A DNA stretch of 63,551 nt, counting the filler, from Phoronis australis (taxonomy: Eukaryota > Animalia > Phoronida): the NCBI GenBank assembly GCA_002633005.1. It is 8 parts of 8 records of this genome, joined end to end, with 100 filler letters (N's around TTAATTAATTAA, not from the genome) between each part and the next. Parts side by side here need not be neighbours in the genome. Positions count along the whole stretch, not along the records: positions 52,275 to 58,430 come from NMRA01002216.1; positions 58,531 to 61,491 come from NMRA01003303.1; 6 more parts are not named here. The stretch is one strand, 5' to 3'. Under the pieces are notes generated by a model, which was not told where the DNA came from, did not search any database, and saw only the letters and a program-made list of their open reading frames with translations. The translations under genes and the position numbers were made by a program. Positions 32,544-62,715 of this stretch are shown here, piece by piece (position 1 is the stretch's first letter; each line of letters starts with the position of its first letter).

Positions 32544-32665
32544 ATGGGGTGGCTTATCAGTCTTTTATTTGAATACGACACAGCGAAAATTGTCCATATA
32601 GAGAACAAAGCTATCGGTATCATCAATAGAATCATCCAACTGGCCATAGTCACTTATGTTATTGT
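32544..32665 (+). CDS. P2RX4: P2X exon 1 (MGWLISLLFEYDTAKIVHIENKAIGIINRIIQLAIVTYVIV)
   Basis: ATG at 32544 with in-frame TAA upstream at 32481; GTAAGT donor, phase 2. Confidence 0.93.
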
Positions 32666-35600: not shown

Positions 35601-38600
35601 TCACCCTAAATAAACATCGCCATACCGGTGAGTTCTTTCCAATTTACTTTACAATACCCCAACGCCACACCGCCACGATGTCAGACGGAGAGGACAACCC
35701 TCAACCAACGCTCCACAACTCCAATTTACTTGGGGTGAAACCACCCTCTTTTGATTGGAAAACCGACAACTTACCCAAAACGTTCCGAAATTTTAAGAGG
35801 TATTGCAACCTGGTTCTCAGCACTCCTGCGTACACCAGCCAATCGCCAGCGACCAAAGTGAGCTATATACTCTTATGGCTGGGACCCAGATCCCTTGAAA
35901 TTTTTGATTCCTGGTCCCTCACGCCCGAACAGCAAGAAGACCCGACAACAGTTTGGGATCGCTTCGAGAAGTATTTTGAGCCGAAAGCAAGTTTTCGTCT
36001 TTGCCGTTTTCAACTTAGACAGATGACACAAGACAGCAACGAATCTATCGACGACTTCTTTACGCGCCTTCGACTACACGCGGAGAAATGCAACTTCGGC
36101 AACAAAGATGCTACAGACGACGCAATACTTGACCAAATTATCCAAGGGGCAAACTCACAACAAGTTCAGAAGAAACTACTCGAACAAGACCCGGACAAAC
36201 TCAAGCTGAAACATGCTCTTGATATCGCCCGTACGTATGAATGCACCCAAGCACAACTGCAACAAATCGGTCGTCCGACCACGGAAATCCATGCAATCAA
36301 AAGACAAACACGTGAAGAGAGCTCTGCAAAACGCTACACAGATAGAAAACCGACACCCAGCGACACATGTGGAAACTGTGGAAAAGAGCTGCATAGATAT
36401 CGCAGCCAATGTCCGGCTAAGGGACAAACCTGTCACCGATGTGGAAAGGTGGGACACTGGGGAGATGTCTGTCGCTCATCAGGCAACCCGGTTACAAGGC
36501 CCAAGGCTCACCCACCACCCAACCCTCCGCGATTCCACGCTACTTCTCATGTACCCGAGACTGACGAAATCTCGTTTGAAAACTTAGTCTTCGACTCTAT
36601 CGGTCCTGATGCCAAACAAGAGGATTTTGCTGATATTAACATTTGGCACGAACACCGTAAACGTGGTATCCTCAGAGGCAAGGTGGATACTGGCACTAGT
36701 GGTAACCTCCTCCCACTCAGAACCTACAGTCGCATGTTCCCAAACCACTTGACACCGAATGGCAAACCTACCCTGACATCACCGTCAACCTCCCGCCTAT
36801 ACGTATATGGTGGCTCAAACATTACCAATCTGGGAAAGCTCACATTAAAATGCCAATGGGGCCAGAGCAAATGGATGGATGTTGAATTTGTGGTTACAGA
36901 TGCTGATGGTGTTGTCCTGTTTGGCCGCATGATGTGCAATCTCCTGGGTCTTGTGACAATCCACTGTTCAATAGAACAATCAGTCTCCAGGCAACCTAAC
37001 ACTCAAGTCAGCTCAACTGCAGACCTCATCGCCTCGTTCCCAGACCAATTTACAGGTATCGAGAAATTCCCAGGGGTCCAGACGCTGACACTAAAAAAGG
37101 ACCAAGAACCGGTTCGTCATGCCCCAAGAAAAGCACCGATCCACCTACGCGATAAGATTCAGTCTGAGCTCAAACGCATGCAGGACCTCGGTGTGATTCG
37201 ACCAGTCGACATTCCTACAGACTGGGTGTCCAGTGCCACATATGTCGAAAAGAAGAGTGGGGACCTGAGAATCTGCCTCGACCCCCGGGATCTCAACCGC
37301 GCCCTAAAACGTGGACAGCACCACACCCCCACTGTTGAAGAACTCACCCATTTCTTCAACGGCGCGACCGTTTTCAGTAAGCTCGATCTCAAGTCTGGTT
37401 ACTGGGCTATACAGCTGGACGAACCCAGCCAATATCTAACCACGTTCAACACGCCCTTCGGCAGATACTGTTACTGTCGCCTGCCCATGGGCATTGTGGT
37501 TTCTCAAGACGATGGATGACAACCTACAGGGGCTACCCGGTGTCATATCCATTGCCGATGATATCACAGTTTTTGGCAAGGATAAACACGAGCATGACGT
37601 TAACCTTCTGCGCCTCATGAATAGAGCCAAAGAGAAAGGCATGGTCTTCAACAAGGACAAATGCATCATCGGCGAACACGAAATAGAATTCTTTGGGCAA
37701 ATCTATGACCACACAGGAGTACGCCCCGACCCATCAAAGGTACAGGCAATAAACGACATACAGGCACCATCCAACGCGCAGGAGCTTCGTTCTTTCCTTG
37801 GCATGATTACATACATATCTCCATTTATACCAAATCTAAGTGAAACCTCTGCCCCTCTAAGAGCCCTACTGCGAAAATACTCTGATTTCCAATGGCAACA
37901 TGAACAGCAGACCGCATTTGACAATCTCAAGAAAACCAACAAGGAAGCAAGCTAGCTACACTATTTTGACCCGAAGATCCCAGCGGTCATGCAGGTCGAC
38001 GCATCACAGTCCGCTCTAGGCGCGGCATTGACGCAAAATGGTCGACCCATCGCGTTTGCCTCTAAGACGCTCACAGACACAGAGAGTCGTTACGCTAACA
38101 TCGAGCGAGAATTACTCGCCTGTGTTTTCGGCGCAGAACGTTTTCATACATACCTTTTTGGCCAACCATTCCTTATAGAAAGTGACCACAAGCCACTGGA
38201 AATGATTGTGGCCAAGCCCCTGCACAAGGCGCCTGCCAGACTGCAGCGCATGCTTCTGCGTCTACAAAAATATGACTATCGGATCAAATACAGGCCAGGA
38301 CCCGAGATGGTCCTTGCCGACGGATTGTCGCGACTCCCTACTGCCAATGCCCACAAGGAAATTCCACTTGACCTCAGTGTGAACTTTGTACAGTTTTCCA
38401 CCGAACGGTTACAAGACCAGCACGACTCATCCAAGAGATGTAGTTACAAGCAGCCAAACCGTTGGGGCAGAATAATCCCCATTTGACCGTCGAGACAATG
38501 ATAGTCCACCCATTGTCTTATAGTTAGGACCAGTTATCATAGTGTTAAAATTAGGATAGTGTTTCATAGTATTTTTTTTTCTTTCAACAAGGAGGATGTT

Positions 38601-41600
38601 ACGTTATGGTCAGTAGTAACTAAAGATGTTGCTACCAGTGTCTTAGTATAGTAGGCATGCTCTGTTACCTACTTCCTGTTCCGGTTGATGTTTCATGTAC
38701 TCTCAATATAAATGCCTTAGTCACAATCGTATCGATCTTCATCTTTGGTCCGAAACCAGCATAGAAACACAACATAGTGTTTCCGTATCACCGTGCTGGA
38801 GACGGATACTTGGCGCCCCCAGGACAGGATTCGACGGCCAATAGGCACTCAGCTGCAGACAGCCACTTATTCAAGGCTATGGAATGATTCTGATTTACTC
38901 ATCATCATCCCGCTTTTCAAGGCTACCAGCACGCCGAGAGACAGACAGCCACCATTGCCATTACGAACCAACCTTAGGGGATGGTAGGGTGTGTTTGGTC
39001 CGTACTCTACAACTGGTATTAGGTGATGCTGGGTAAAAAAACTTGCAGTTGAAGGAAAGACTGACCACAACCTGTTCGAGCTAGTATACAGTGTTTCTCT
39101 TTTTGAAAATATCGACAACTAAAAAGTACCACATGGTCTCATTATTAAAAAAACATTCTAGAACCAATTATGCTATTTTCTTTGGCCTTTCTTTAATTTG
39201 TGAAAGGAAATGCTACGTAGTAGGTTTGAGATATCTGCAATAATTTAGACAATGAGACTACCAGTATGTATATTCCTGGGTTCCATTTACGTGATGATAA
39301 TAATTGGAACCGAAAAGCCATACCTTGATGTAGTCTGTGTACATATCTCACGGACTTGGTTCACCACCAGGTGCGCCCTCTTTCGCTGTGGAATAAAAGC
39401 AAGAAAAACAACATGGGGGATTCCCTAATGTAGGGGGGAATGCTGTAACAGGTCTGAATTCACCGCAGGGAGATCAAGACCAGGATACCTGTTCAGACTT
39501 GGTCTGTGGACTTGACAATAATTTTAGTTTGTGTCATGTAAAATAGCCTTCATGTAAAATAGCCTGCAAAACACACTGCCTGTTTTTACGGGCCATCTTC
39601 ATAATACTGTTAACAACTCAGTTACATGTCAAACTAAACCTTTTGTGGTTTTGCTAACAGTTACCTAATTAAACTTGTGTGAGTTAACAACAATGGCATG
39701 AATATTTCTCATAATTATGAATACTGTTAACAACTCATTTACATGTCAAACTAAACCTTTTGTGGTTTTGCTAACATTTACCTCATTAAACTTGTGTGAG
39801 TTAACAACAATGGCATGAATATTTCTCATAATTATGAATACTGTTAACAACTCATTTACATGTCAAACTAAACCTTTTGTGGTTTTGCTAACAGTTACCT
39901 CATTAAACTTGTGTGAGTTAACAACAATGGCATGAATATTTCTCATAATTATGAATACTGTTAACAACTCATTTACATGTCAAACTAAGCCTTTTGTGGT
40001 TTTGCTAACAGTTACCTCATTAAACTTGTGTGAGATAACAACAATGGCATGAATATTTCTCATAATTATGAATACTGTTAACTCATTTACATGTCAAGCT
40101 AAACCTTTTGTGGTTTTGCTAACAGTTACCTCATTAAACTTGTGTGAGATAACAACAATGGCATGAATATTTCTCATAATTATGAATACTGTTAACAACT
40201 CATTTACATGTCAAACTAAACCTTTTGTGGTTTTGCTAACAGTTACCTAATTAAACTTGTGTGAGTTAACAACAATGGCATGAATATTTCTCATAATTAT
40301 GAATACTGTTAACAACTCATTTACATGTCAAACTAAACCTTTTGTGGTTTTGCTAACAGTTACCTCATTAAACTTGTGTGAGATAACAACAATGGCATGA
40401 ATATTTCTCATAATTATGAATACTGTTAACTCATTTACATGTCAAACTAAACCTTTTGTGGTTTTGCTAACAGCTACCTAATTAAACTTGTGTGAGATAA
40501 CAACAATGGCATACATATTTCTCATAATTATCAATACTGTTAACAACTCATTTACATGTCAAACTAAACCTTTTGTGGTTTTGCTAACAGTTACCTAATT
40601 AAACTTCTGTGAGATAACAACAATGGCATGAATATTTCTCATAATTGTCAATACTGTCCTCACACAGACAGTTTTTTTGGGTGCAACTGTCTAGTCTAGA
40701 AGTGTTACCTGATATGTACTACTTGTTATTTTATTGCAATCATTATTGCTCAATCTTCAGGTATGCCATCGTCATCAAGAAAGGTTATCAGGAATTTGAT
40801 GATGTAGTTAGTGGTACTAACACCAAACTGAAGGGGACGCTGGTACTAAATGGAACTAATGGAACATGGCGCACCTTAGATGTGGCGGATTATGTTATAC
40901 CACCACAGGTAAGGAACAATGTGGGGTAAAAGGTCATGTATTTTATACCTGACAGCTATAGAAAGTCAAAAGGCGTTACTGACTGTGAATCACTGTGCTA
41001 CAGAATGCCCCTTAATCTTTTGCTGAAAATTTACTATTCACTGAAGTCAGGACTCAGGAGTCATATTTCTAACTTTGCTGTGATTACAGTAAAATCTCAG
41101 CAATTTAAGACACAATACACTGGACATTTGTTGTTTTAAATTCTGACAATATTCTGAAACATAAAGGAAAGATGCCACAAAATCAATGCTTTACCATTTT
41201 CAAATTATGTACCAGAGAAATCAAAAATATTTTGTAAAATAAAAATAAAAAGATACCTTTTGGAAACAAAAAAACCATACCTTGGGTAGAATGTGTACAG
41301 CCATTTCGTCCATATTTCACGGACTCGTTTCACCATTGGGTGCACTCGCTGACGTTCTAGAATAAAACAATAAAAACAGTCTTGGGGATTTGCTAGTGTC
41401 GGGGGAAATCCCGCAACAAATCTAAATACACCACAGGTAAGTCAAGGAATGGGTCTTTGTTAAGACTAGGTCTATAGACTTGAATCTCAATAACTTCTTG
41501 TGTCTTGCATTTCCGCTCAATCCGAGTGTAGATCAATAAAAGTCCTTATCAGAGATCTGGTGGTGTAGGTCTCTGGCATGCTCTTGTACAGCAGTAATAG

Positions 41601-44600
41601 ATTTAAGGTTGGGGTTACACCCAAATAAGTGGAAGCGCAAGATACGAGAGGCTGTAACACTAGTTCATAACAAACCACCAATGTGTTGGCCAGTAGTGGT
41701 TGACTGTTACACTAGGTCATAAGAAACCAGTATTGTGTCGGCCAGTAGTGGTTGACTGTTAAACTATCTCATAAGAAGCCACTTATGTGTCAGCTACTAG
41801 TGGTATAACACTAGGTCATAAGAAGCCAAGAATGAGTTGGCCGTTAGTGGTTGACTGTAACACTATGTCATAAGAAACCACTATTGTGTCGGCCAGTAGT
41901 GGTTGACTGTAAAACTATCTCATAAGAAGCCACTTATGTGTCAGCTACTAGTGGTTGACTATAACACTAGGTCATAAGAAGCCAAGAATGAGTCGCCCAG
42001 TAGTGGTTGACTCTAACACTTAGTCACAAGAAGCCATCAATGTGTCAGCCAGTAGTGATTGGCTGTAACACTAGGTCACAGAATTCCAAGAATGAGTCAG
42101 TCAGTAGTGGCTTACTGAAACACTAGGTCACAAGAAACCAACAATGAGTCAGCCTGTAGTGGTTGATCTGTATCACTAGGTCACAAGAAGCCACCATTGT
42201 GTCAGCCAGTAGTGGTTGACTGTAACACTAGGTCATAAGAAGCTAAGAATGAGTCATCCAGTATTGGTTGAGTGTAACACTGCATACTTCGATAGCTGTT
42301 AAGTCAAAAGTACTCCTTCTAAACACTGTCAATTGGAGATCAGACTGTTGAAATCTTTAATCTTGTTGGAGTATTCCGATAACTAAGTTGCTTCACTCAC
42401 ATACCATCTATACTATGCTCATTCAAAATGTTTCCACTTGCATTATCTCTCCCTTGTTTTCTCTTGTCCCTCCCCTTTGTAATTCTGAACAGGTTGGTTG
42501 GTATAAGAAAGTTTTTTGCTACACTTGTCTGCATACCTGATGAAGGGCAACTCCCATTACGGTTTAAAAGCTATTGTTTTCTAATTTTTACTGCATTTAA
42601 AGAGTTTTGACTTTTTCTACATGATCTTCTGTGCATGACATGTCTGCCAGCGACATACAATCAGCTGAGTCAATAATGGAGATAAGAATCATTTGTTTTT
42701 AGACTGCTAGCGACATGAGAACATCGCCTAAGTAAAACGTCTTTTTAAAAAGATCCAGAGATGCAATAAATCCTTGGCTTAGTTACTACACATAACAGAT
42801 CAGTGTAGTTTCTTAAGGACATACTTTATGGAACTGGAACCAGACCTGCAGGAAGGCCCATACTTCGCTATAAAGAATTTTGCAAGTGTGACCAGGTGGA
42901 GTTGGACTGTCGAGTCATGCATTAAAACCAGTGAACAAAGAAGAGAAGAAAAACAGGCACTTCTTAAAGAACACAGACATCATAGGGCAGCCTCTTCTAT
43001 TGATCAAGACCAAGTATACACCTGTGACAAGTGCAATTATTGAACATGCCGCTCCAAAGTCGGACTTTTTATCCATAGGCGATGCTGCAATCCAACCAAT
43101 GACTGACAGAGGGCGCATATCCGTTGTCTCTCGAGACGGATGGCTGCCAACCATAGATCAGTGCCATATTGTTTCCATTAACTAGATCCACAGCTCATTA
43201 AAGAAGACCTGCTATAAGGAAAAATGCATCATATTTTTCAATTGCTGCTGTCCCATACCGTTGAAGAAACTAATTTGTGTGTTGATACTTTTATTTTAGG
43301 AGCAAGGGGCCTTCTTTGTAATGACCAACTTCATTGAAACAGAGCAAAAACAGAGTACATGTCCAGAGGTCAGTGTAAATAACAAGTGTTGCTAACAGCA
43401 ACTGACTAGAGATGTTGTCTGCCATGCATTACAGATTTTAGTATTGCCATGTTCTTACCAGATAGTGGTATTTTTGTTGTCAGAATTTTTTTGTTCTCAC
43501 TGGACCTACACAACAGTGTTGATGACATTGAACCTTCATGGATTTTTCATCTTACCCTTAAATTTTTTTAAATGCTTTATTTATGTGTCAAAAATATGCA
43601 AGTTATTTTGGATGACTTCGATTCATGTCATCTGTGTGGCAAGTTGATCAGCCGTATTCACTGCTTTAATTTTCAAGGGTTTTGGCAGTTTTGAATGGGG
43701 CTATTCGGAGAATTCTCCTCGCGGTGTCGCTGCTGTACTAGTGGTGATTGAATTGCGCATGCGTGGCTTTCTGCATGTAAACAACTGGTAAAAGATGGAA
43801 TTTTTATCAAAATACGTCGTCGCGCTAAGCCTTATTACTGCTAATTTCCCTGGTGCAAGTCTTCGACAGGTGGCTACAAATTCCCAAAAGACCTAAGGTT
43901 AATATATTCGTGGACAATTGCGGTCAACAGGGTCAACTAACTGACAAAAAGTATGTGGATGCTGAAGCACTGTGTGTGCTCTATGACTATGCAGTTCCAT
44001 TCGGAGACTACACAACATTACTTGGTAAGTTTTTAGCAATCAGTTTCTATCAACATCGTTCGGTGATGCTATCCCCACCAGTTACCCCACTGAATAACAG
44101 GTTTATTGAGAGGAACTAAGTGTTTCTTTTTGGAAACTCACGCGATGCCGGGTAGGCTAGCAGCACATATTCATATTGTCCTGGGTGGGAGTGCTCCCAA
44201 AATAAGAGGTGTATGGTACGTGATGCACAGAAGTCAAGAGTGACTTTTTCACAGCAGTTTCTCTTCAAAACTATGCTGTTTCCAATAAAATTCTCTAGAT
44301 GAGTGTGTTTCCTTATTTTATCNNNNNNNNNNNNNNNNNNNNNNNNNNNNNNNNNNNNNNNNNNNNNNNNNNNNNNNNNNNNNNNNNNNNNNNNNNNNNN
44401 NNNNNNNNNNNNNNNNNNNNNNNNNNNNNNNNNNNNNNNNNNNNNNNNNNNNNNNNNNNNNNNNNNNNNNNNNNNNNNNNNNNNNNNNNNNNNNNNNNNN
44501 NNNNNNNNAAGAATTACCTCACCATGCTCTTTTCCCCAAACATGTATTACCTGTTATTTCCACACATTCAGTTGTACCAAATATTACAACCCCCCATGCC

Positions 44601-47600: not shown

Positions 47601-48039
47601 TGAAAGCCTGATGGAGTGGCTTTTATCAACTGAAATCAGGATTTCTTTTAGTTTGAAGTTAGTGAATATTATACATTCTCTTCAATGTTGTATGATATTT
47701 CAGGATCCTGCACTCTCCCAGTGTGTCCCGGGTCATCCAGGCGACTGTGTGCATGGAAGAGCTGTCAAAAATGGCAATGGTAAGGCTTGACACAAATTGT
47801 TGCATGGCATGCTGTCACTTTTAAATGAAAGTACAAAATTCAAAGGTTGTGAAAGTTTTTGGGCTATTTGTGTCCTATTTCCTCCAATTATGATGTATTA
47901 TGTTGTTTTACTAACAAAATCTTCTTTGATTTTTTGAAGGTGTGGAGACAGGAAACTGTGTTAAGTCTGATTTCAATACCAGTCAGCATGTCTGTGAAAT
48001 ACATGCCTGGTGTCCAGTAGAAAAGGACATCACACCTGG
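32544..48039 (+). CDS. P2RX4: P2X purinoceptor (P2X4-like), spliced, 5' part: join(32544-32665,40761-40908,43300-43368,47704-47779,47940-48039)
   Basis: Five GT-AG exons join in frame: FEYDTAK (YxTxK motif), TM1, KGYQ, TKLKG (ATP-binding lysines), DVADYVIPPQ, AFFVMTN, TCPE, CEIHAWCPVE, six head-domain cysteines. The symbol is family-level only, since invertebrate P2X genes are not subtype orthologues. Exon 6 onward not found in the window. Confidence 0.95.
32705..33299. mobile_element. Diverged foldback MITE in P2X intron 1; related half copy at about 33570-33760
   Basis: TAGACAGTGACC..GGCTCAGTAGAGA(GA)CGGTGAAGCT at left versus AGCTTCACCGTCTCTACTGAGCC..GGTCACTGTCTA at right; palindromy continues inward. 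Confidence 0.8.
34000..35335 (-). mobile_element. Highly decayed LOA/R1-like LINE relic, interrupted by the Gypsy element (probably continues 38780-39100)
   Basis: Minus-strand translation of 34395-34201 is RAKRN*WRNFCQ*..AMAKLVQILKK..KDGSYTSSPGETLRAMLDNHYPGS, which resembles the pre-RT region of LOA/R1-clade ORF2. Outer boundaries approximate. Confidence 0.5.
35341..35518 (+). repeat. 5' LTR
   Basis: 178 bp, 2 mismatches versus the 3' LTR. Confidence 0.97.
35519..35530 (+). promoter_or_regulatory. Primer binding site, tRNA-Leu type
   Basis: TGGTGGCAGCGG directly after the LTR is complementary to the CCGCTGCCACCA 3' end typical of metazoan tRNA-Leu(AAG). Confidence 0.8.
35678..38443 (+). 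pseudogene. gag-pro-RT-RNaseH polyprotein with frameshifts; integrase absent
   Basis: ORF pieces 35489-37519, 37494-37955 and 37989-38486. After RNase H (..VQFSTERLQ) the sequence jumps to a pol C-terminal-type peptide RPARLIQEM* ending at 38443. Confidence 0.92.
38597..38774 (+). repeat. 3' LTR
   Basis: 178 bp, preceded by a polypurine tract. Confidence 0.97.
39603..40656. repeat. Tandem satellite, 9 units of 117 bp (units 5 and 8 are 114 bp)
   Basis: AATACTGT starts at 39603, 39720, 39837, 39954, 40071, 40185, 40302, 40419, 40533 and 40650. Confidence 0.97.
40761..40908 (+). CDS. P2RX4: P2X exon 2 (YAIVIKKGYQEFDDVVSGTNTKLKG...DVADYVIPPQ)
   Basis: 148 nt, tcttcag acceptor, CAG|GTAAGG donor. 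Confidence 0.95.
41652..42281. repeat. Minisatellite, about 12 units of 52 bp
   Basis: Unit CTGTAACACTAGGTCATAAGAAGCCA..GTCRGCCAGTAGTGGTTGA with diverged interiors. Confidence 0.93.
42815..43158 (+). mobile_element. RTE-clade LINE 3' fragment
   Basis: ..RW...E..R..YTCDKC then, across a frameshift, CRSKVGLFIHRRC (C2H-type C-terminal finger); 3' hairpin ATCCGT..CTCGAG..ACGGAT. Confidence 0.7.
43300..43368 (+). CDS. P2RX4: P2X exon 3 (EQGAFFVMTNFIETEQKQSTCPE)
   Basis: 69 nt, ttttattttag acceptor, GAG|GTCAGT donor. Confidence 0.95.
43693..43914 (+). repeat. Dispersed repeat copy B (probable DNA-transposon terminus GGGGCTATTCGGAGAATTCTCC)
   Basis: Reverse complement of 32055-32276 with only a few mismatches; element probably continues rightward. 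Confidence 0.9.
47704..47779 (+). CDS. P2RX4: P2X exon 4 (DPALSQCVPGHPGDCVHGRAVKNGN)
   Basis: 76 nt, tttcag acceptor, GTAAGG donor, phase 0/1. Confidence 0.92.
47940..48039 (+). CDS. P2RX4: P2X exon 5 (GVETGNCVKSDFNTSQHVCEIHAWCPVEKDITPG)
   Basis: 100 nt, CTAAC branch point at 47911, ttttgaag acceptor, GTAACT donor, phase 1/2. Confidence 0.94.
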
Positions 48040-48439: not shown

Positions 48440-50890
48440 CGTTTGTAGAACCGATTAACTGGAATGGGAATATTTGTTAAAAATGATTTGTTTAAAATAT
48501 TTAAAATCGATATTGTTGACAAGTCGTGTGATGGTATATTAGCTTTAAGACTAACTCATATACGCTCAGACTATTGTATATTGTATTTTGTTGCTACTTA
48601 CCACCTGAGAATTCTTCAAGGGGTTGTGATGCGGATAGTTTCTATAGCCATCTATTATGCCAGTTATATTTACATGCAGAAATAGCAGATGACGTTGTTA
48701 TATGTGGAGATTTTAACTCGAGAGTGGGTAACTTGAATGATTACATTCCAGATGTTGATTGTCAAGTAAATAAACGAGTCGTAATTGATAAAGCTGTAAA
48801 TAGTCATGGTAGAAGTTTGATTGATTTTTTGTTAGGGTCTAAAACTTGCATAGTGAATGGTAGGAAAGAGATAAGTAAAGATAACTTCACCTCAATAAGT
48901 CATAGAGGAAGAGCGGTTGTAGATTACTTTATGGTCCCNNNNNNNNNNNNNNNNNNNNNNNNNNNNNNNNNNNNNNNNNNNNTTAATTAATTAANNNNNN
49001 NNNNNNNNNNNNNNNNNNNNNNNNNNNNNNNNNNNNNNGATTTAGTAACTCTATCGATGTGTTTGGGACTAATGCGATGTTTCATGACCCACAATGCTTC
49101 ACTCTTTGTTTATACTGTCAGCTGCTATTAATCATGGCAACCAACATGTTTATATAGTGTACATAATTAATACAAACGGGGGTTTTAAACAATGACTTGA
49201 TTCAACGTCGGACGCAAAGATTTATTTTCCACACAAATACATCAGGGAAAGCCCTGTCGTCAATTATTCAAACAAGAAAGTCGTCTAACCTTTCTACATT
49301 TGTGACATTTGTGGACATGAAAAAAGCTTTTGACTGGACAAACTGTGAAGTTCAGTTTTATAAATCACTGCAAGATAATACTAATGGTAGAATGTACGAT
49401 GCAATTCGTATGATTTACAGAAGTCCGTTGCACTGTATACGATTAAACCGGCACTATGTATATTGGTTGATTCACTCCTGAAAATGGTGTCCGTCAGGGG
49501 GACATTTATCAGCGACACTCTTTGCATTATATATAAATGACTTAGTTCTGGATATTAAAAAATTGGGTAAAGGTGTCCAATGTGGCCCGAACAATATTTC
49601 AGTGCTTCTTTATGCCGACGATATTGCACTTTTGTCTGAGAATGAAAATGACATGCAAGATATGTTGAAGGTTTCAAACAACTGGTGTAAAAAGTGGAGA
49701 ATGGTTGTGAACATGGCAAAAACTAATGTTGTCCATTTTCGAGCTAAGTCTATGCCTACTTAGAAGCAATTTTGAATTTATTTTGAACTGTGTCATCAGT
49801 TATAAATCCTCATACAAATATTTAGGCTCTATTCTGGATCAACACCTTGACTTCAAAGAAAATTTGAATACGTCATCTGAAGCTTCTGGTAGAGAAGATA
49901 TGCTCAACATTCCGTGATAACACGAATCTATAGGATTCGGACGTTTAAAACATTATTTAATTCCTGTGTGGCACCAATTTTAGATTACGGGTCATCTGTT
50001 TGGGGTTACAAAAATTTTGGTAATGATGAAAATATTCAAAACAGAGCTATGCGTTTTTATTTAGGGGTCAACCGATTTACAGCCACTCATGCTGTTAGTG
50101 GCGATATGGGGTGGGACTCCACCGGAAATAGATTTAACTTGAATATGCTGCGTCTTTGGGACAAACTAGTAACCACAGGTGGTGATAGGTTACTGAAGAA
50201 GGTATTTCTATGGGAGTACTCTCTTGGCAGAAAGGGCTGGATAGACGGAATCAAAAATTTGTTTAACATAACTGGCATGCAACTATGTTTTCAAAATTTG
50301 ACTACTTGTAACGTAGTAAACGCTAGAAACAAACTATTTGAATACGCGAAACATGCTTTGGGCTGAGTCTGTTGTAACAAAACCCAAGTTAAGAACCTAC
50401 ATTTTATTTAAGCACGAGTTTGTAACTGACCCGTATGTAAAGATTAATTTATCTCGTTCCGAGCGGTCTCTTCTGGCTCAACTTAGAGCTGGAAATCTCC
50501 AATTGCACTTGGAAACTGGTCGTTATGTAAGCACTTCTGTAAGTGAAAGACTTTGCTTGTGTTGTGATTCTGGTTTTGTAGAGGATGAGCTTGTGTTTGA
50601 TTGTTCTCTTTATAGCTCATGGAGGTCTCTTCTGTTTAATAATGTTTCACTTCAAATCCCGAACTTTCAGATTTCAGAAGATTAGATACGTTAAAACTGC
50701 TATTTCAGTAATTGAACTTAGAGACCGACGCATTTATGGTAGACTTACATCTGAAATCATTGTGTGTGTGGTTAAAGTGACTAATAAGCCCAACAGGGCT
50801 GGGTACTTATCTTTCTTACAAATGTTATACCTATAACTGTTTGATGTAATTGTACTTGTCTTTATAATAAATAAATACTACTACTACTAC
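48440..50890 (+). mobile_element. Degenerate LINE (RTE-X-like) spanning a gap, with (TAC)n tail
   Basis: CYLPP, CGDFNSRVG, NSHGRSL, VVDY (APE); FVDMKKAFD, GVRQG, LLYADD, YKYLG (RT); L.LETGRY..R.C..C...EDE C-terminus; AATAAA then TACTACTACTACTAC. Confidence 0.88.
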
Positions 50891-52427
50891 TTCATGATCT
50901 CTCGTGACCTGTGGCCTATTTTACACCGTCCGTGTGACGTCAGCCGCAGCGGAATGTAGGTCAAGGTGCTCGGTCAAGATTCTCCTTTCTGCGTGCTTCA
51001 GTAGCAATCAGCTCACTGGTTCCCTACGTGCCTCGCCAGCACGCAGGTATCACGCCGTGGCACGCCGATGTAACCTCAGCAGTCATTGGTTAGCTTTACA
51101 ACACCGTGAAAAAAATGGCGGACTGAACGATTTTTAGCCTTGTCATGCAAGTGGGGGCGCAGCCGTGAACAGTATTTCGTTTCTGCAGTGATGTTTAATA
51201 GACGCGTGCTTGAAGCACAGTGTATAATAAACACATTATCTGGCCGATTTAACCGGTGTGTTATTCATACAGTATGAATACAGGACAGTATCGTAAACAA
51301 AAGTCATCGACAGTAGAAACATGCGCAACCATTCACATTTCCTGAACATAAATTTTAACGGCACCGATTTGTCTGTACAACAGACCACATATACACAGTT
51401 TGTTTGCTTAAAGCGCTGCCTGTTGAGAATTCGACTAGCCAATCAGAAATGCCGGTGTAAAAAACTTATCCCTAGGAAAATTAATACCAGCGTTCTGGCT
51501 ACTGACCACATAGCGGCATGCAGGGAACCAGCGAGAGCAGTCAGCCGAGCGCCCATTAGCGATAACTAAATGAGAAACCATGTGATTGATGGGAAGGGCC
51601 ATCTGTTTCTGGTAAAGGTTTTGAATGTGCGGGTACCTTTTGCGATGTAGACACGAGTAACTCATTTTGGTTTTAACAGCTAGCCATTATCCCGTCACGG
51701 TGACGCACAATCCCTTTATTTGGTTAGGGAGGTGCCGTTGGACATCTAAATCAGTTGGCGAACATTTTTATACCATGCAATTCTATGCTTTAAAAGTTCG
51801 TTCTGGGTTTGTCAGTCTCTGGGTAAACAAGATACACCTGAGATAGTTTTCAAAGTTCGTCATTGCCAATACGCTTGCAATATTGTCTAAAATTATGGTC
51901 CTTAGATCACTATACTGTTAATTTCAAGTTTGACAGTATCGTTGGATTTTGCTGTGGCTCAGGAACTCATATGTAGGCACCGAACAGACTGATGAACTGT
52001 TGAAATTATTATTTTTTTAGTTGAGTAGACAAGCTTTTGTAATGTATAAGTTGATTTGTTGTGTTGCGTATCGTTTAATTCAAAGTAAATATTGAGTGTG
52101 GCAGTAACTGTAACAGGGATTTTTAAATCTTTTAAAAAAGACGTACTTTTTGTTTCAACAAAATTTAAATTGNCNNNNNNNNNNNNNNNNNNNNNNNNNN
52201 NNNNNNNNNNNNNNNNNNTTAATTAATTAANNNNNNNNNNNNNNNNNNNNNNNNNNNNNNNNNNNNNNNNNNNNGGGTTGGTCGCTGACTCAGCTAACAG
52301 CCAAAACAAGTTTCTATAAACAAAAACAATTGGCTAGCAAAGAAATAATACCAATAAGTAATAACACTATAAAACTAATGTGCTAAGAATTATATGTATC
52401 ATGAATGTCACAGATTTCATGACAACA

Positions 52428-52681: not shown

Positions 52682-55631
52682 TTAAAACCAAATAGATATT
52701 GAAACAAAATAGGACTAAAGTGAATTTATTAGATAATTTTCATTTTAAGCAACTACTCTAGCTTACTACATAGCTTATCATGCTAACTAGCTTCCACCGT
52801 AAAAATAGCATCTGTCAATGTAGGTTACCACTGGTTACTGAGTTTAATGTCCAAGTCAAAGCATCCCGACCATACGTTAATCGCATTCAAACTGGAGATC
52901 GATGATTTTCAGAGAAAATGAGAGATAAATTTTACTGAATTAAAGACATCATTTCTATTGAAATTTTGCGTATTACTTTTCATAGCGTATAAATTTCGGT
53001 ATAATGCTGTTTGTTGAACATGCAATTGTTGCCCTTGGTCATTTAAAGTCCTTCTCTCAAACTGCCCATGTGGTTCCAGTATCCGAAAATACTTACTACA
53101 TAAAATCTTATTTTCGACACCCTTTCTTTATATTCTTTTCGCCTTTCTTGCCAAAAGCGATTTTTGAACAGCATTTGACCCTTCTTTCTGTGCGTATGAT
53201 TACCGGTTTCCGTACCCACATTTCCGGCTCAACAGTTCAGGAACTTGTCCTGAACGCCGCCATTTTTTCCTTGTAACTGAATGTGCTATCGCTTGCTCGA
53301 AAAGTCTTCATTATTTTGTTTTATTNGTAATATATCGTGATTCATTTGCATATGTAGTGTATTTATAGTTTGTAGTTAGTGGTCGTTGATTTTTTTTGGA
53401 ATGTTATGCGTACTTAGTATGTTAAAATAACATTGGTGCTAAGTTCCTTACGTAGGTGGGTCGAACCTAGGAACCAATATGGGTCGAACCAATTTTTTTT
53501 GGTTTTATTTTTTTCCTCGTTTTGAAAAAGTACTTCGCTATCATCGGAAAGGTAGTACATTCTACTCAGTAAAAATCGAAAAAGTATCAAAATCGGGGCA
53601 AGCACTGTAAAGTTATTGCAAGTTTTGTGGCGAAATTTGGGTCACTTTGTTTGGATCGCGTCGGCCATATTGGAGGACAGCTGGCACCTGCAATGTCGAC
53701 TTTTGCTGAACTGAAAGGCATGTTCAATCGGCTACTTTGTAATTTGTGAAGATTTAACGTTGATACATTTTGACAAACGTTGATACAAAAAAGAAACTTT
53801 GTTCAATTTTCCTGTTTTTTGAGTTTGTGACCAGCGACCAGTTAGGCCTAAGGGTAGTCTTGGCGCAAAGCTGTATAGGCCAACTAACAAGCTATATTTT
53901 GACTCTTCACTGGTAGCTGGTGACTGAGGCTAACTAAGGTCTGTCGCGGCAGTGTGACACAGGACTAACCAGACCGTAATTTCATGCAAGTGTCTGAGAC
54001 TACCCTTAAATATATGCAGCATTTATCATTTGACCATTTTACTTCGACAAAACAGCTTGCAACCGCATGCCTTTACCGTTCGCCAGTGTCTGGTCTCGAT
54101 CCGCACCGGGTCCGATTGGCTACGGTCCCGAGTCTGGCAAAATATTTTCTGTCAAAATTTATTTGCCGCATTTCTTCAGCAAATTCCATAAAATTGTCCG
54201 TAGTTTGATTTTATCAAAATTAAGGCGCGCTGTCGATTTTTTTATCCCCATTTGCTGGCTGGTAACAGTACAGGCACTGCTCCAGTCGCACTGACGGCGT
54301 TTTCTCGGCCTGGGTTCCTGAATGAATTGTACACTCCGAAACCCTATAGTCGTCCGCCTAAGCATAAAACCGGCTTGTTGTCTTACTCACCCAATTATTC
54401 CACTTCAAAGTTATGATCTGAATAGGACTTGATTTAACTCTCACAAATNTTCTTGGATCCTTATAACGTCTTCTAAGCATGTAATAAGGGTTAACAATGC
54501 GTGAGAGGACTTTAAAATACTACAGGAACTACACAGACGGGAGTCGGACAAGTTCCGCAAAAATTAGAACGATCTGTTCATGATGTAAACCCAGACGGGA
54601 GCCGAACGCTTGCTTGTCCCTGAAAAAACGTCGCCTGGCCGATTTTGGGTGTTTCGGCAGACATTTGCCCAGTTGTCGTGACTTTTCAATTTCAATACCT
54701 CATTGTCTCATCTTCCAACTAATGCCAACTATGCATCTATTCATTATACCACATACTGGGCTTGGTCGTTTTGGCGACCTCGTTTTCCGCTTGGCGACAT
54801 GGGAATTCTTCCCGTCATATTTGGTGAGTTGACCTTATGTTTTTTTCTCAATCCAGGTGATGAGCCACTAATCACTGAAATTTAATCAATCTTAACCCAG
54901 AGGCAATAACGCTAAATTATCTCTTAATTATCTCGGTCAAACACCATCAGACCCTTATCCTGATTTACTGCACTGTGCAACTAAATGTCATCCCTCATTT
55001 CAACTTCAAACTTTCAGATGTCCAAGACAACCTTATGGCAACAATTGTTTACTAGGCCTACTGGCTGTCAGAAATGAATTTAGTGACTAGCAGAATATTT
55101 TAAACAAGTCTGCATGGAACAAACTGTTTACAAGAGGTAATCCAGCCACTGAGTGTTTACAATACAGCTAGTGTTTATATAGCCTGGAGGCACTAAGCAC
55201 ACATATGTAGTAGCAGACAGTGGAGAGTTACAAATAGACACCTTCAGGTTACAAGTAGTTATATTCTTGTCAACTAATGGACCAAGTTCAATCAAGATGA
55301 CATGCAAGTTAGAATCATGTACAAGGCATTCACAACACATAAGATGTGACAATGTGGAACAGGGCAACGGCAGTTATGAAGTCTGATATAACGTGCCCAT
55401 ATTTTGAGAACCAGTTTGATACCATTTATTCAGAGGAGAAAACTGGTTCTCAAAATTCGGGCACATCATATTCGAGCATTACTCAGGGCAGCAGCATCAA
55501 AATCTCACAAATTTAGTGCACACTATGGCGGACAAGTGATTTTTGTTTTCCTTTTTCATGAGAAGCCACATTTTCGAGGTCCAGGCTGTCGCTATACCAT
55601 CGAATGATTAAAAAATTCATGAAACATTTAA

Positions 55632-55789
55632 AGGCGAAGGCAACCTTTTTCCATGTCATTTTGAGCTAAAATAAGGTTGGTTGGTTATCCTAGACATATT
55701 TTTCACTTAATTACAGCTTTTCGTAATTTTATTAATTACTCGTCCGCTTTTCCGGAAGTGACGTTTTAGGAGGCAAGCGCTTCCCGCCA
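55632..55789 (+). repeat. Left TIR of Kolobok element
   Basis: Reverse complement of 57415-57572 with about 4 mismatches. Confidence 0.95.
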
Positions 55790-55965
55790 CTTGGTTTTGC
55801 GTTGAGCTTACTGTGCGAATCTGTTCTATTCTACTTTTGTTTTGTGCTATTTTTCACCAATTGTCGCCACCACTTTCCATCGGCGAGTATTCTGCGGCAA
55901 GATAGGTTAGTAGAGAACTCAACTGCGTTGGATTTAGGGATTGTTTAGTGTGTTGTAAGCTGAAA

Positions 55966-56277
55966 ATGGCTGGAGTCGGTGACCCGTATCACAGTGACAG
56001 TAGTGTGAGTGACGGAGACCTTGTTCACAGCAGTGGTGACGAGGAATTTTTTCACGGACATTCAGTGGGTGGGTACATGTTTGAGCCCGAGTACAACGAG
56101 GCAGAGTACACACAGGCACAGGCAGCTGTTGAGAGAAACGAGGCGGCTACTGAAGACAGACGTGGTGACACATCTTGGTGCAAATGCACTGTGTGCGTTG
56201 TTATGCCTACCTCAATTGAATGCTTGTGCTGTTCCGAGTTCCACATCAATTATCTTTTTGGTCTCTTCCTCCATTAG
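55966..56277 (+). CDS. KolX-like protein, N-terminal half (P2X7 cytoplasmic ballast / Zn-cysteine domain-like), truncated at about 56241
   Basis: Acidic leader, YMFEPE, then WCKCTVCVVMPTSIECLCCSE matching the WCxCxxC..M....E.LCC.E motif. Residues after EF are read-through into antisense transposase sequence. Confidence 0.82.
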   Translation: MAGVGDPYHSDSSVSDGDLVHSSGDEEFFHGHSVGGYMFEPEYNEAEYTQAQAAVERNEAATEDRRGDTSWCKCTVCVVMPTSIECLCCSEFHINYLFGLFLH

Positions 56278-57307
56278 AGTGTATGTGGTATACTTGGCGG
56301 ACCGCCCTGGTGAGTCAGACAAGTTCTCCTTCTCCATGAATTCCGCCACCAACTCGAGATGTTGTGACATGTATGCGTCATTGACAACTGGTATTAAATA
56401 GGAATTCTGAATGTTGTTGAATGTTGTTTTCGAAAAAAAACTTGACTTTTCCAAAGTCCATCATTGTCTTCACCGACTGAAACGTGTTTCCAGTGAAGAG
56501 CACACCACTGGACATGGTTAAGTGGACCTCCGGCATACCACGGACAGAGGAACAACTGTCCCACTTGCCAGAGTGTCCCGTGACACACTCCCACTGGATG
56601 GTGACCTGAGCACCCAAACTGCTTACATTGTGTCGTGTGACTCCCTCGCCACACACCTGGCACCTTCTAAATAGCTCCAACACTTTAGACAAGTCCACAA
56701 TAAACTTATCAAAGTTTGGCTCACCGATCTGTTCACTGGACGACGAACTGTCCTCTTCACTGGGTGTCGAACTGGGCCTGTAATCACTCCCACTACTCAA
56801 TATCGCTGCAGGGCTGCTTAGAGGCTCTGGGCTGGAGAAAACAGCACAGGGCGAATCACTACTGGTTCCAGGAATTGCACGCTCTGGGGTACGTTCGGAG
56901 GCACGGGTGACAGTAGATGAAGTGCCTCCACTGGCTCCAGTCACTGTACTGGCCACAGCTCGCGAGGCTTCTCGCTTCAAAAACGCACTTCTCGGGGGTG
57001 GCGACGGGGCACTGCCGGGAATCAACACAGACGGAATGGCATCCTTCTTCAAGCGTTGTTTCGCGGGGACCTTCATCAGTTCAGCGTACAAATCCCTTTC
57101 GTAATCGGACGGCAGAAAGTGCTTGCCACACACACGGTAATTCTCCACTGCTTTGTACGTTGCGTGGACGGGTAACGCTGCGTTCTTCACACGAACGAGC
57201 CAAGTACGGCGAAGTGTGTCATCCATCGGAAAGCGATGCAAAGGCACTCCCAAAGCGCGCGTGAGCCGATAATTACTACATCCCGGTACGCAGCAACAGT
57301 GTGGCAT
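56237..57307 (-). pseudogene. Kolobok transposase, 3'-truncated: THAP domain, CxxC..C..GH finger, start of catalytic domain
   Basis: THAP (CCVPGC..LHRFP..W..VCGKHF..LKKDAIPSV); CQVC...CVTGH...W. After a one-base shift in the A8 run near 56433-56440 it continues FFSKTTFNNIQNSYLIP..DSPGRSAKYTTYTLMEEETKKIIDVEL. Confidence 0.88.
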
Positions 57308-57414
57308 GTTGACTGACTAGTAAATGAAAGCGAACGACGACGGAACTTAACACAACCGAGGTAGAACAATGACTGACTCGGCAGCTCTCACAGCCAGACT
57401 ATGTGAAAAGAAAT

Positions 57415-57572
57415 TGGCGGGAAGCGCTTGCCTCCTAAAACGTCACTTCCGGAAAAGCGGACGAATAATTAATAAAATTACAAAAAGCTGTAATTAAGTG
57501 AAAAATATGTCTAAGATAACCAACCAACCTTATTTTAGCTCAAAATGACATGGAAAAAGGTTGCCTTCGCCT
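57415..57572 (-). repeat. Right TIR of Kolobok element
   Basis: Reverse complement of 55632-55789. Confidence 0.95.
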
Positions 57573-60500
57573 TTAAGCCATCGAAAATGAAAAACGGAAA
57601 TTCCGAAAATTATTTTTGTGCAAAATTGGTGAGATTTTACATTATTTCTTAAGACGCCCCATGTACTTGTCATAGACAATGCATACATGACTTGGCGCTT
57701 TTCTTTTTCCAGCAGAATTCCCCATGAAAGGATGTATTTTTCACATAATTCCCAATGAAAGCAACTCTTCAAAAAATAGTGATGTTACAAATTAAAACTT
57801 GATGAAATGGCAACTTTTATAAAAATTCTGAACTTCACCACAACAAAAATTAACTCCACTGGGAGCCAGTCTCGTTTCTTCACAAATGGTGAAATCACTC
57901 TTACCTATAGCATCCTTTTTTCAAGAACGCAATGTTTTTCTCACAAGATCGATGTTCATGAGAAAAGAATGCTATCAGTGAATACGCCTGTACAGTTGAC
58001 ACAGAGGAAAACTGAGGGTACCCTAGCTGTAACAGACAGTAGAAGCTGGTATTTATTTTAACAACTAGACAGAGAAATATCATGTGGTCCATGATGTCTA
58101 ATAAAAACAAACTGAACACAGAAATGCAGATAGTGCCTCCTAGTGTATGGCCAAGTTCCAAAAACACTGGGCGCATGACTTCAATCATGACGCATTCTCA
58201 TTTCCAATCCACCACAGCAATCAGAGGGTATAAACTAAGATGGCCTGCTGAACACATCACGCATGATGCATCGATGCACAATTAAAACTTGCTAGTTAAG
58301 AAAACAGAAGCACTTATGTTATTGGCATTGTCTTTAAGCTTTCTCATGCCATCAGGTTCGTTAACGCACGCAATAGGAAACACAGACCTTGGGTGGGAAG
58401 GAAGGACCCAAAATATGGGACAAGGCAAAANNNNNNNNNNNNNNNNNNNNNNNNNNNNNNNNNNNNNNNNNNNNTTAATTAATTAANNNNNNNNNNNNNN
58501 NNNNNNNNNNNNNNNNNNNNNNNNNNNNNNAACCAGGAAATAGTCTCCCTTGGAGTTTTGATAGGTAATATAGCTTGATAGGTTTTATAGCTTGATTTAG
58601 ATTAAGTGACTTGCAATGCTGCATCTGCAATACAGTGTAGTGTGTGATCTAATCTGGGTTGCTTTGGATTCATCAAATTAGAACACAATATGACAGAAAA
58701 GTAAAATTTATTTGATGAAAAAAATTGACAAGGATAAACAAGAAGACAATTTTACTTGATTATTTGAAAACTTTATTATGGTATAGCTGTTACCAACAAA
58801 AAGATGATGAAATTTTGAAAATTTTTGGCAATACAGTGAAAAGGGAAAAATGAATATTTTGGCAATTGATTTTGTTCAAATTTGAGGACACCTTATCGTA
58901 CTTAGTCTATTGTGGACCGTTTGACTTTCTGAACTGTTCAAGTCTATTTTGGAACTGCCTTTTAAGCCCACTATTAAGACCCTGTGCACCGCCCTGGAAC
59001 TGCAATCAGTTTGGGTTATTTTGGGTTATGTAAGGTATCTGGAACAGGTGGTTTAAAAATTTAAATCATATTCCTGAACCACCATGTTGTTTTCAAGAGC
59101 AGGTGCATGGCAGTAAATGTTAAGTGGATGGTGTTTAGTTGGAAGCTTGCTGTGTACTTTGTGTGAATTTAACAGGTATGTGAATACCCCTGGACCACTC
59201 TGCAAAGAGAAGTCCCTATACCTGTAGAAAGCGTATTTACTGTTTTGTTTCTTAGGTATAGTTACCAATGTCATGCAAAGATGATTGCCAAAGTTGATAT
59301 GTTTCCATTTTTCAGTGGTTCTAACATTGTTTGGAATGACCAAAATTTGACATAACATTGAATCATGGTAACTGTAGTATAAAACTAAAAGTGATTATGG
59401 TAAACCTGGATGAGAATTTTAAACGGATTACTTGCTCAAAGTCAAACATACGAAAATGTGTAACCCGTGTAAAAAGTGTGTAAAGCGTGTAAAAATATGA
59501 CATGTTATGTGTCAAACAGGTAAAACTGTTTTGGACTGGGGATAGAGCTAGAAAATTACAGTGAAAAATTCCCGAGGTTGTGACAATGAAAACTGATTAC
59601 TTTATTCAAGGTCGGATCTCATACCAAATGTTAGAAATAGTCAACATTGGTTGTCCCGAGTTTAAGGAGTATGATCATTGACAAGCAATCATCTCCTTTG
59701 GTGCTTCACACTATGGGAATCCATGAATATATTGCGTCTGTGATTATTTGAACTGGCAAGTCTATTTTCAGACTCAGTTTTGTGTTATTCCAGGGTTGCG
59801 ATTATCGTTTTAAGATATAAGAATTGACGGTTTGGCAAACATGTTTATGTAAAATAACTGAAAAATTGTCCTCGGTCTAGCTTCTGGTTAACAATGGTTT
59901 CTAGTAGAGATTGAGTGTGGATCACATCAGCAATTAATCATTACAAGCTAGTGACAAGAGCTTATGAATAAGTCCACATAATTCTATACTTAATTATTAT
60001 TTTGATATTGGGAAATCTTTCTTTTGCTTCACTAATAACTATCGGAAAAATGCAGAAACGTGAAACATCAACACGATGTGTTCAGTCCATTGAAAAACTA
60101 GAAGCCCTTTCATGCTACTGTCAATGTCTTGGGGAGTTGCAGTCAGTGTGAACGATTAACTTTGGTCCTGGATTGAAGGTAACTGTGCCAGTGAGCTTCA
60201 TAGCAAAGAGGAAGATTCAACAGCGGAACGTCCATGCTGCGGTAGGGTATGAATGATCAACTTCGGTCTTATTGAAGTTATCACCAGGGCCATTGTTGTC
60301 GTCAACAAATAAGGGGCAGCATTATCGCTAATATTTTGCTCGAATAATCACCAATCGAATTAGAAATCAGTTTTATGTCAATTATCACAGTGCATGTAAA
60401 TTTTCTCAAATTCTCGCATTAAAATAATTTAAGTGCGCACGGTACGAAAAACCTGCCATTTCTCTGTCTACTTTTAACGGTACTTTATGCATCAGCGCTA

Positions 60501-62534: not shown

Positions 62535-62707
62535 AGGATACCAGTTTGTTATATCACAATATTAGCGTCATATGGCAAATACAACCGCGTAATAACCCAT
62601 TTAGTTATCTCACTAGTGAGATAACATTTTGGTGACCGAGGCCGGATTCGAACCCGGGCCTCAAGAGTTGCGAGTCGCCGACTTTACCACTACACCACTC
62701 AGCGGCT
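62535..62707 (-). mobile_element. tRNA-derived SINE
   Basis: Minus strand A-box TGGTGTAGTGGT and B-box GGTTCGAATCC at tRNA spacing, but acceptor stem is poor; tRNA-unrelated body follows; 3' boundary approximate. Confidence 0.7.
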
Positions 62708-62715
62708 GACGTCAT

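What the first reader, a model, noticed from the sequence alone, without database searches (positions are those of the whole stretch)
55628..57576. Kolobok transposon carrying a P2X7-ballast-like KolX ORF, inserted in sense orientation behind exon 5 of a P2X4-like gene
Seen: a TTAA-flanked element with 158-bp TIRs. Its plus-strand ORF has YMFEPE..WCKCTVC..MPTSIECLCCSE, and it lies 7.6 kb downstream of P2X exon 5 on the same strand. Known (from memory): vertebrate P2X7 is thought to have arisen when a P2X4-like gene acquired a cytoplasmic Zn-cysteine ballast domain with a WCxCxxC...E.LCC motif, and Kolobok's accessory protein KolX carries that motif. Inference: this locus independently places both ingredients of P2X7 in one probable transcription unit in an invertebrate, which illustrates how such a capture could start. 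Caveats: the insertion appears to be in intron 5 (ectodomain), not after TM2; KolX is truncated; and the co-location may be chance. It is also an annotation trap, because pipelines may call it P2X7-like.
Basis: partly seen in the sequence, partly recalled or inferred. Interest (0 to 1): 0.85.

Follow-up and report, generated by a model that had tools for sequence, protein, structure and literature searches.

The report
Gutted Kolobok transposon near P2X gene
This is a broken, internally deleted copy of a known jumping gene (Kolobok) whose helper-gene stub resembles the tail of the P2X7 receptor, a link already published; it likely landed in an intron of an invertebrate P2X gene by chance, and the P2X transcripts examined splice to a normal next exon rather than into it.

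Summary
The anatomy is real. A 1,941-bp element (55632-57572) has TTAA on both sides, AG..CT ends and 158-167-bp TIRs. Its plus-strand ORF hits Pfam P2RX7_C, and P2X exon 5 ends 7,593 bp upstream on the same strand. It is a non-autonomous, internally deleted Kol0 copy. The transposase is frameshifted and lacks its catalytic core, and KolX keeps 5 of 7 ballast cysteines. The KolX-ballast-P2X7 link was published by Kojima & Bao in 2022. The locus-specific idea (an incipient P2X-ballast capture) finds no support: all 89 RNA reads crossing the exon-5 donor in three runs continue into one sequence that reads as P2X exon 6. Exon 6 is not in the window and two gaps separate exon 5 from the element, so an intron-5 position is likely (about 65%) but unproven. 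The RNA comes from other samples than the matching DNA runs, and I laid no reads on the element itself. Sense orientation is a coin toss for a two-gene convergent element, and the gene holds other transposons. Ordinary finding and a real annotation trap.

The parts
55628..55631 (.). Left TTAA target-site copy
   Evidence: sequence
55632..55798 (+). Left terminal inverted repeat (158 bp at 3 mismatches; 167 bp at 6), begins AG
55966..56238 (+). 5' stub of KolX (91 codons): YxFEP motif, WCxCxxC and ExxCC; 5 of 7 ballast cysteines, cut off by the deletion
   Evidence: Pfam P2RX7_C E 4.6e-5; alignment with 12 KolX of related elements; ESM Atlas best hit P2RX7_C cluster, 0.94, 214 of 256 features shared, but recognition 1553, below the tool's 2300 mark
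56236..56238 (.). Deletion junction: the last KolX codon overlaps the last aligned transposase codon by 3 nt (possible microhomology, inferred)
   Evidence: tblastn of 5 of 6 transposase homologues ends at 56236, the sixth at 56245; KolX alignment ends at 56238
56239..56277 (+). 12 junk codons plus stop, read through antisense transposase DNA
56236..57307 (-). 5' stub of a THAP-domain Kolobok (Kol0-type) transposase: frameshift at a T run near 56432-56441, a 7-codon gap over the first catalytic-Asp motif, and no second D, DxxH or E region
   Evidence: THAP E 4.1e-15; P0002 52%; tblastn; HMM of 18 relatives covers positions 1-364 of 624
57406..57572 (-). Right terminal inverted repeat, ends CT
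57573..57576 (.). Right TTAA target-site copy
32544..32665 (+). P2X receptor coding exon 1
   Evidence: Pfam P2X_receptor E 3.3e-8
40761..40908 (+). P2X exon 2
   Evidence: Pfam E 6.4e-10; 25 homologues; nearest solved structure P2X4 E 1.8e-8, P2X7 E 1.4
43300..43368 (+). P2X exon 3
   Evidence: RNA joint to exon 4 in 21+23+18 reads
47704..47779 (+). P2X exon 4
   Evidence: RNA joints on both sides; GT-AG and open frame
47940..48039 (+). P2X exon 5; its donor splices to an exon-6-like sequence that is not in the window
   Evidence: Pfam E 1.1e-7; 44+22+23 reads, agreement 1; 0 matches in window
48939..49038 (.). Assembly gap (N filler, true size unknown) between exon 5 and the element
52175..52274 (.). 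Second assembly gap between exon 5 and the element

Best explanation
This is an internally deleted, non-autonomous copy of a Kol0-type Kolobok DNA transposon, keeping both inverted ends and the first parts of its two facing genes (KolX and transposase), that likely inserted by chance at a TTAA site in or just beyond an intron of an invertebrate P2X gene and would be spliced out with that intron. Shown: the ends, the TTAA pair, both gene stubs, the junction, the lesions, and normal exon 5 to exon 6 splicing. Inferred: (1) the parent was a 4-8 kb element with convergent transposase and KolX genes. (2) A deletion of at least about 1.3 kb removed both 3' halves, possibly at a 3-nt microhomology. 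(3) The copy was moved by a transposase supplied in trans, or was deleted after insertion. (4) The insertion is fairly recent, since the TIR arms are 96-98% identical. (5) It has no role in the P2X protein.
For: TTAA pair, AG..CT termini and TIRs match the published Kolobok definition (PMC9587614 background; PMC6004289 passages). The minus-strand ORF has THAP. By eye, its last stretch matches the start of the catalytic core of Kolobok_1_XT and Kolobok_1_BF in Data S5 apart from a 7-residue gap over the first Asp. Of 80 loci fetched with related transposases, 20 show a KolX motif or tblastn hit; the other 60 show none, many being short contigs. The 20 fall into 12 groups: 10 convergent as here, 1 divergent, 1 tandem. 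Ten loci have TTAA-flanked inverted ends 3.6-8.1 kb apart; three of them (one group) have about 155-bp TIRs. The stubs meet at 56236-56238. RNA: 89 of 89 reads past the exon-5 donor agree on one exon-6-like continuation, as does one contig of a fourth run. The same gene carries an LTR retrotransposon in intron 1 and a LINE right after exon 5, so insertions here are routine.
Against: Exon 6 was not found in the window, so the intron-5 position is unproven. Two gaps of unknown size separate exon 5 from the element. The RNA runs are from other samples than the DNA runs that best match the window, so they may not carry this insertion allele. Only about 18-19% of each run was read, and I laid no reads on the element itself. 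No full-length member of this exact family was recovered (one search found none; the nearest long relative is 52% identical). Copy number could not be counted (no genome held), so 'chance' is argued, not measured.
Confidence: 0.86

Rival explanations
1. The element is not inside the P2X gene at all. Exons 6 onward sit in the gaps at 48939 or 52175, or the scaffold is misjoined there, so the element lies downstream of the gene or is unlinked. This rival shares the element anatomy of the best explanation and differs only on position.
For: No exon 6-12 signal in the 15,512 bp right of exon 5 from 17 full-length homologues by tblastn and HMM or from the RNA-derived exon-6 start. Known introns here are 8,095, 2,391, 4,335 and 160 bp, so an intron 5 of more than 15.5 kb would be the largest. 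The gaps are 100-base fillers of unknown true size.
Against: All remaining exons would have to fall in two gaps, while exons 1-5 were all assembled. Intron 1 is already 8 kb and the region is rich in transposons.
Confidence: 0.33
2. Incipient exonisation: a minor P2X isoform splices into the KolX frame and gives a P2X-ballast chimera.
For: KolX is in sense with P2X. Of 14 AG sites in the KolX frame and in phase with exon 5, 11 stay open to the ORF's stop. The published model has P2X7 arising from such a fusion.
Against: 0 of 89 reads at the exon-5 donor dissent (about 3% upper bound if the sampled animals carry the insertion). None of the 14 candidate acceptors has more than 11 pyrimidines in the 18 bases before the AG. 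The product would be TM1 plus half an ectodomain plus half a KolX, with no TM2 and the cysteines outside the cell (inference). The stub lacks the third cysteine cluster and GDP-site region.
Confidence: 0.04
3. The 1.9-kb form is itself a successful non-autonomous family (MITE-like) amplified in this genome, not a one-off deletion. It could still express a THAP-containing truncated transposase that binds the ends and dampens transposition.
For: Intact long TIRs. A 309-codon open THAP frame. A 97%-identical protein record P0001 with 4 substitutions in its first 176 residues shows another allele or copy exists.
Against: Only one copy in the window. P0001 leaves the frame at residue 177, so the open frame is not kept there. 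No expression or copy-number data for the element were obtained.
Confidence: 0.25

Closest known systems
Kol0 (Kolobok0) lineage of Kolobok DNA transposons, type Kolobok-1_XT (Kojima & Bao 2022, PMC9587614: passages, section 10, parts 104-105 of supplement 3 seen)
   Same: TTAA duplication, RR..YY termini, a transposase whose core start matches Kolobok_1_XT and Kolobok_1_BF by eye, and a second gene KolX with the ballast cysteines.
   Different: This copy is 1.9 kb, has lost the 3' halves of both genes, and its transposase is frameshifted and lacks the catalytic residues. I did not find its terminal 10-mer in the paper's four supplements, so the family may be uncatalogued there.
Non-autonomous Kolobok derivatives such as Xenopus T2-MITEs and truncated XKol copies (PMC6004289, passages seen)
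   Same: TTAA target, AGG-type termini, no coding capacity for transposition.
   Different: Longer, with recognisable stubs of both genes. Amplification as a family was not shown here.
Vertebrate P2X7 cytoplasmic ballast (ZCD; Pfam PF20478; PDB 6U9V, 8TR5) and Nanor (Rump et al. 2020, PMC7016195: parts 1-3 of 6 and passages seen)
   Same: WCxCxxC and ExxCC cysteine clusters. The KolX profile hits P2X7 residues 464-529, and a full-length relative hits 461-591.
   Different: In P2X7 the ballast is a whole final exon behind TM2, in frame, with 7-8 cysteines and the GDP site. Here it is a half domain in a transposon, not spliced to P2X in the reads seen, and upstream of where TM2 would be if it lies in intron 5.

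Membership tests
Kolobok superfamily | TTAA 4-bp target-site duplication | tested here: met
   TTAA on both sides; no empty site seen
Kolobok superfamily | 5'-RR ... YY-3' termini with TIRs (unlike piggyBac) | tested here: met
   AG..CT, 158-167-bp TIRs; definition
Kolobok superfamily | Transposase with N-terminal THAP domain | tested here: met
   THAP E 4.1e-15; feature stated in PMC6004289
Kolobok superfamily (autonomous member) | Intact DDD/E triad with C/DxxH signature | tested here: not met
   First-Asp motif falls in a 7-codon gap, the rest is deleted, and there is a frameshift. The copy is therefore filed as a non-autonomous derivative
Kol0 lineage | Second gene KolX | tested here: met
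   5' half only: 8 invariant columns with 12 KolX sequences of related loci; Pfam
Kol0 lineage | Placement of the DDE core in the Kolobok0 clade | tested here: inconclusive
   Visual match of about 30 residues to the Kolobok_1_XT and Kolobok_1_BF rows of Data S5; no tree built, and the core is mostly missing
Ballast / ZCD domain (PF20478) | Three cysteine clusters, 7-8 Zn-coordinating Cys | tested here: not met
   Cluster 1 and the CC of cluster 2 present (5 Cys); the rest deleted (consensus; alignment)
Ballast / ZCD domain (PF20478) | Ballast fold | tested here: inconclusive
   AlphaFold model of the stub has pTM 0.27 and one helix; not used for fold search
P2X7 receptor | P2X channel with TM2 fused in frame to a C-terminal ballast exon | tested here: not met
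   No P2X-KolX junction at exon 5 in 89 reads; junctions from later exons could not be examined
P2X receptor gene (host) | Spliced exons encoding PF00864 | tested here: met
   Exons 1, 2, 5 hit PF00864; five exons GT-AG and in frame, 171 codons, no stop; RNA joints 3-4 and 4-5
P2X4 (orthology) | Orthologue of vertebrate P2X4 rather than of all vertebrate P2X | not tested
   Similarity only: exon 2 is nearest to P2X4 in the PDB and 22 of 25 hits were not named as vertebrate. That invertebrate P2X genes are usually outgroups to P2X1-7 is recalled, not tested

The most novel reading that the evidence does not exclude
The missing P2X exons lie in the gaps left of the element, so the KolX stub actually sits just behind the TM2 exon. 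A minor isoform splices into it and gives an invertebrate P2X channel with a half-ballast zinc-cysteine tail: an independent, ongoing replay of the origin of P2X7.
Probability: 0.02. Interest if true: 0.8.

Novelty: new member of a known kind. Interest (0 to 1): 0.12.

Why it matters
As found, it matters little. It is one more decayed Kol0 copy, and the KolX origin of the P2X7 ballast has been in print since 2022. The practical point is an annotation trap: a PF20478 'P2X7 intracellular domain' hit 7.6 kb behind P2X exons can be merged by gene predictors into a false invertebrate P2X7. If a real P2X-KolX transcript existed, it would be the first non-vertebrate P2X-ballast fusion. Rump et al. 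state they found none outside vertebrates, and my five paper searches found no report of one. It would then make the capture step testable.

Tried and rejected
No whole genome is held, so copy number, enrichment near P2X loci and exons right of the window could not be checked. Word-index searches for longer relatives of the transposase stub (5,625 candidates, 0 hits) and of the KolX stub (89 candidates, 0 hits) found nothing; the tool calls this weak evidence. phmmer of the KolX stub alone against the PDB gave 0 hits at E 10; a profile was needed. AlphaFold on the stub gave no usable fold, so no Foldseek job was sent. I used the two lays on exons 3-5, so the element's own transcription and DNA depth are untested. 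Recalled P2X motifs for exons 6-10 gave only spurious hits right of exon 5. Weak tblastn hits near 51,300 (- strand) and 56,755 were rejected as wrong strand or noise (E above 0.9). The plus-strand ORFs 56009-56398 and 56917-57261 have no Pfam hit and lie opposite the transposase. piggyBac was rejected because the termini are RR..YY and the transposase is Kolobok-type. Earlier scan notes for this genome: none. The KolX alignment of the 2022 paper (Figure S6) is a picture and could not be read.
Full report
Observation. The element runs from 55632 to 57572 (1,941 bp) between two TTAA tetramers, and begins AG and ends CT. The inverted ends match over 158 bp with 3 mismatches and 167 bp with 6. 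A perfect 58-bp TTAA-flanked arm compares with at most 9 bp in 200 shuffles. It is the only such pair found among 443 TTAA sites in the window. The plus-strand ORF from 55966 has the quoted motifs and just passes the Pfam cut-off for P2RX7_C, covering profile positions 54-100 of 192. P2X exon 5 ends at 48039, 7,593 bp upstream on the same strand.

What it missed. The minus strand holds a 309-codon ORF from 57307 with a THAP domain (E 4.1e-15). A search of 1.84 billion representatives gave 1,668 proteins at E up to 0.001, the best long one (P0002) 52% identical. tblastn with six of these shows the transposase continuing in a second frame past a T run near 56432-56441. It lacks seven codons over the first catalytic-Asp motif and ends at 56236 (five of six queries; 56245 for the sixth). 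An HMM of 18 relatives covers positions 1-364 of 624. KolX homology stops at 56238, so the two stubs meet tail-to-tail with a 3-nt overlap. The last 12 codons of the 'KolX' ORF are antisense transposase. I read this as one internal deletion; the lost part is at least about 1.3 kb of coding sequence, judged from homologue lengths (inference).

Related elements. A scan of metagenome contigs with nine closer transposases confirmed 258 of 379 candidate stretches and returned the best 80 loci. 17 of 80 carry the KolX motif, and tblastn with the window's stub hits 19 of 80; together that is 20 loci. The other 60 show none, and many are short or have KolX split by introns, so this is a floor. The 20 collapse to 12 groups at 90% identity: 10 convergent as in the window, 1 divergent, 1 tandem. 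Ten loci have TTAA-flanked inverted ends 3.6-8.1 kb apart, three of them (one group) with 152-156-bp TIRs. All 8 of the KolX frames tested hit P2RX7_C, five above the cut-off. A profile of 13 KolX sequences (the window's plus 12) finds 4 PDB sequences at E up to 10, all P2X7 (E 2.5-3.2e-5). A full-length relative alone hits P2X7 residues 465-591 at E 3.8e-10. The window's stub alone finds nothing in the PDB, and its AlphaFold model is uninformative (pTM 0.27). The ESM Atlas top cluster is P2RX7_C (0.94), though its recognition value is below the tool's mark for strong evidence. Against the ballast consensus of Rump et al. the stub keeps cluster 1 and the CC of cluster 2, i.e. 5 of 7 cysteines. 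It has lost the third cluster and the GDP-site region.

The host gene. Exons 1-5 are 32544-32665, 40761-40908, 43300-43368, 47704-47779 and 47940-48039, all GT-AG, giving 171 codons without a stop. Exons 1, 2 and 5 hit PF00864. Named homologues of exon 2 are mostly mollusc P2X at 53-65% identity. Exon 2 is nearest to P2X4 among solved structures (E 1.8e-8; P2X7 E 1.4), which shows similarity, not orthology. Stranded RNA of the same species label confirms the exon 3-4 and 4-5 joints. At the exon-5 donor, 44, 22 and 23 reads in three runs carry a loose end with agreement 1 in each run, and a contig of a fourth run has the same letters. In frame they read K-A-K-L-E-G-S-K-Y, which lines up by eye with the start of exon 6 in homologues. 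So 89 of 89 reads take one, normal route. There are limits: about 18-19% of each run was read, and the three raw-read runs are one study. They come from other samples than the DNA runs that match the window best, so these animals may lack the insertion. I take 'agreement 1' to mean no dissenting read. Junctions from later exons were not examinable, and no reads were laid on the element.

Is the element inside the gene? Exon 6 is not in the window: 0 matches to its start at up to 3 mismatches, and no credible hit for exons 6-12 from 17 full-length homologues by tblastn or HMM over 3,359 frames. It lies either beyond 63551 (intron 5 over 15.5 kb, the largest of the gene) or in one of four gaps of unknown size. 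Two of those gaps are between exon 5 and the element. I put intron 5 at about 65%. No genome was held and the scan has no other notes on this genome.

Chance. The element carries two convergent genes, so one of them is always in sense with the host, and KolX in sense is a 1-in-2 outcome. The gene region is full of insertions: an LTR retrotransposon in intron 1 (35341-38774, 5-bp duplication; RT and RNase H) and a LINE from about 48530. There is also a THAP scrap in intron 3 and a weak second Kolobok-like scrap at 4785-4850 (E 0.008). I could not measure the family's density, so chance is argued, not computed. Even a hypothetical exon 5-KolX splice (11 of 14 in-phase AG sites stay open, none with a strong pyrimidine tract) would give TM1, half an ectodomain and half a KolX outside the cell. 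That is not a channel with a cytoplasmic ballast (inference).

Mechanism. Shown: ends, duplication, gene stubs, junction, lesions and normal splicing. Inferred: a Kol0 element lost its middle, either before a last jump catalysed in trans or after insertion, and now sits inert, removed with the intron. The 96-98% identical arms suggest a fairly young insertion. P0001 (97% identical, out of frame after residue 176) shows another allele or copy.

What is known. Kojima & Bao 2022 (PMC9587614; I saw the abstract, passages including sections 12 and 16, section 10, searches of four supplements, and parts 104-105 of supplement 3) define Kolobok by TTAA and RR..YY termini. They state that KolX adopts the ballast fold and that P2X7 arose by fusion of a P2X4-like gene with KolX. 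Rump et al. 2020 (PMC7016195; parts 1-3 of 6 and passages) report ballast proteins across Metazoa, never with a P2X architecture outside vertebrates. PMC6004289 (passages) gives THAP, DDE and H2CH as Kolobok transposase features. Five searches found no report of a KolX element in an invertebrate P2X gene; the library lacks most subscription papers and Repbase. Earlier notes of this scan list 19 findings with the words Kolobok, KolX, P2X7 and ballast in at least 6 other genomes. These are unchecked AI notes, used only as leads.

Verdict. This is a new, decayed member of a known kind next to a P2X gene, with no sign of capture. Interest 0.12; the capture reading has a probability of about 0.02.

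Noticed in passing
window 35341-38774: LTR retrotransposon in P2X intron 1, in sense: 183-bp LTRs 98% identical, TG..CA ends, 5-bp target duplication, gag/RT/RNase H frames split by frameshifts.
   Followed up: partly
window 48530-50870: Decayed LINE (endonuclease-RT type, Pfam Exo_endo_phos_2 below cut-off) starting about 500 bp after P2X exon 5 and spanning the first gap.
   Followed up: partly
window 4785-4850: Short scrap resembling the Kolobok transposase first-Asp region (HMM E 0.008), possibly a second, old Kolobok remnant.
   Followed up: partly
window 32055-32276 and 43693-43914: 222-nt inverted duplicate (98%) containing a degenerate THAP-like start. One copy is just upstream of P2X exon 1, one is in intron 3; the intron copy is heavily covered by RNA reads from other copies.
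   Followed up: partly
window 19327-22733 and 27055-28650: Two further LINE remnants upstream of the P2X gene (endonuclease + RT; zf-RVT).
   Followed up: partly
window 39498-40727 and 41603-42320: Tandem arrays of about 117-bp and 52-bp units flanking P2X exon 2.
   Followed up: no
window 62630-62710: tRNA-like sequence on the minus strand by eye, probably a SINE head; ARAGORN calls no tRNA in the window.
   Followed up: partly
L034:30-3745: Compact TTAA-flanked Kolobok element with nested inverted ends and an intronless full-length KolX placed divergently, not convergently, to the transposase.
   Followed up: partly
window gaps (7 of 8): Gaps are 100-base fillers with a 12-base all-frame-stop linker in the middle, so their true sizes and contig order are uncertain.
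   Followed up: no
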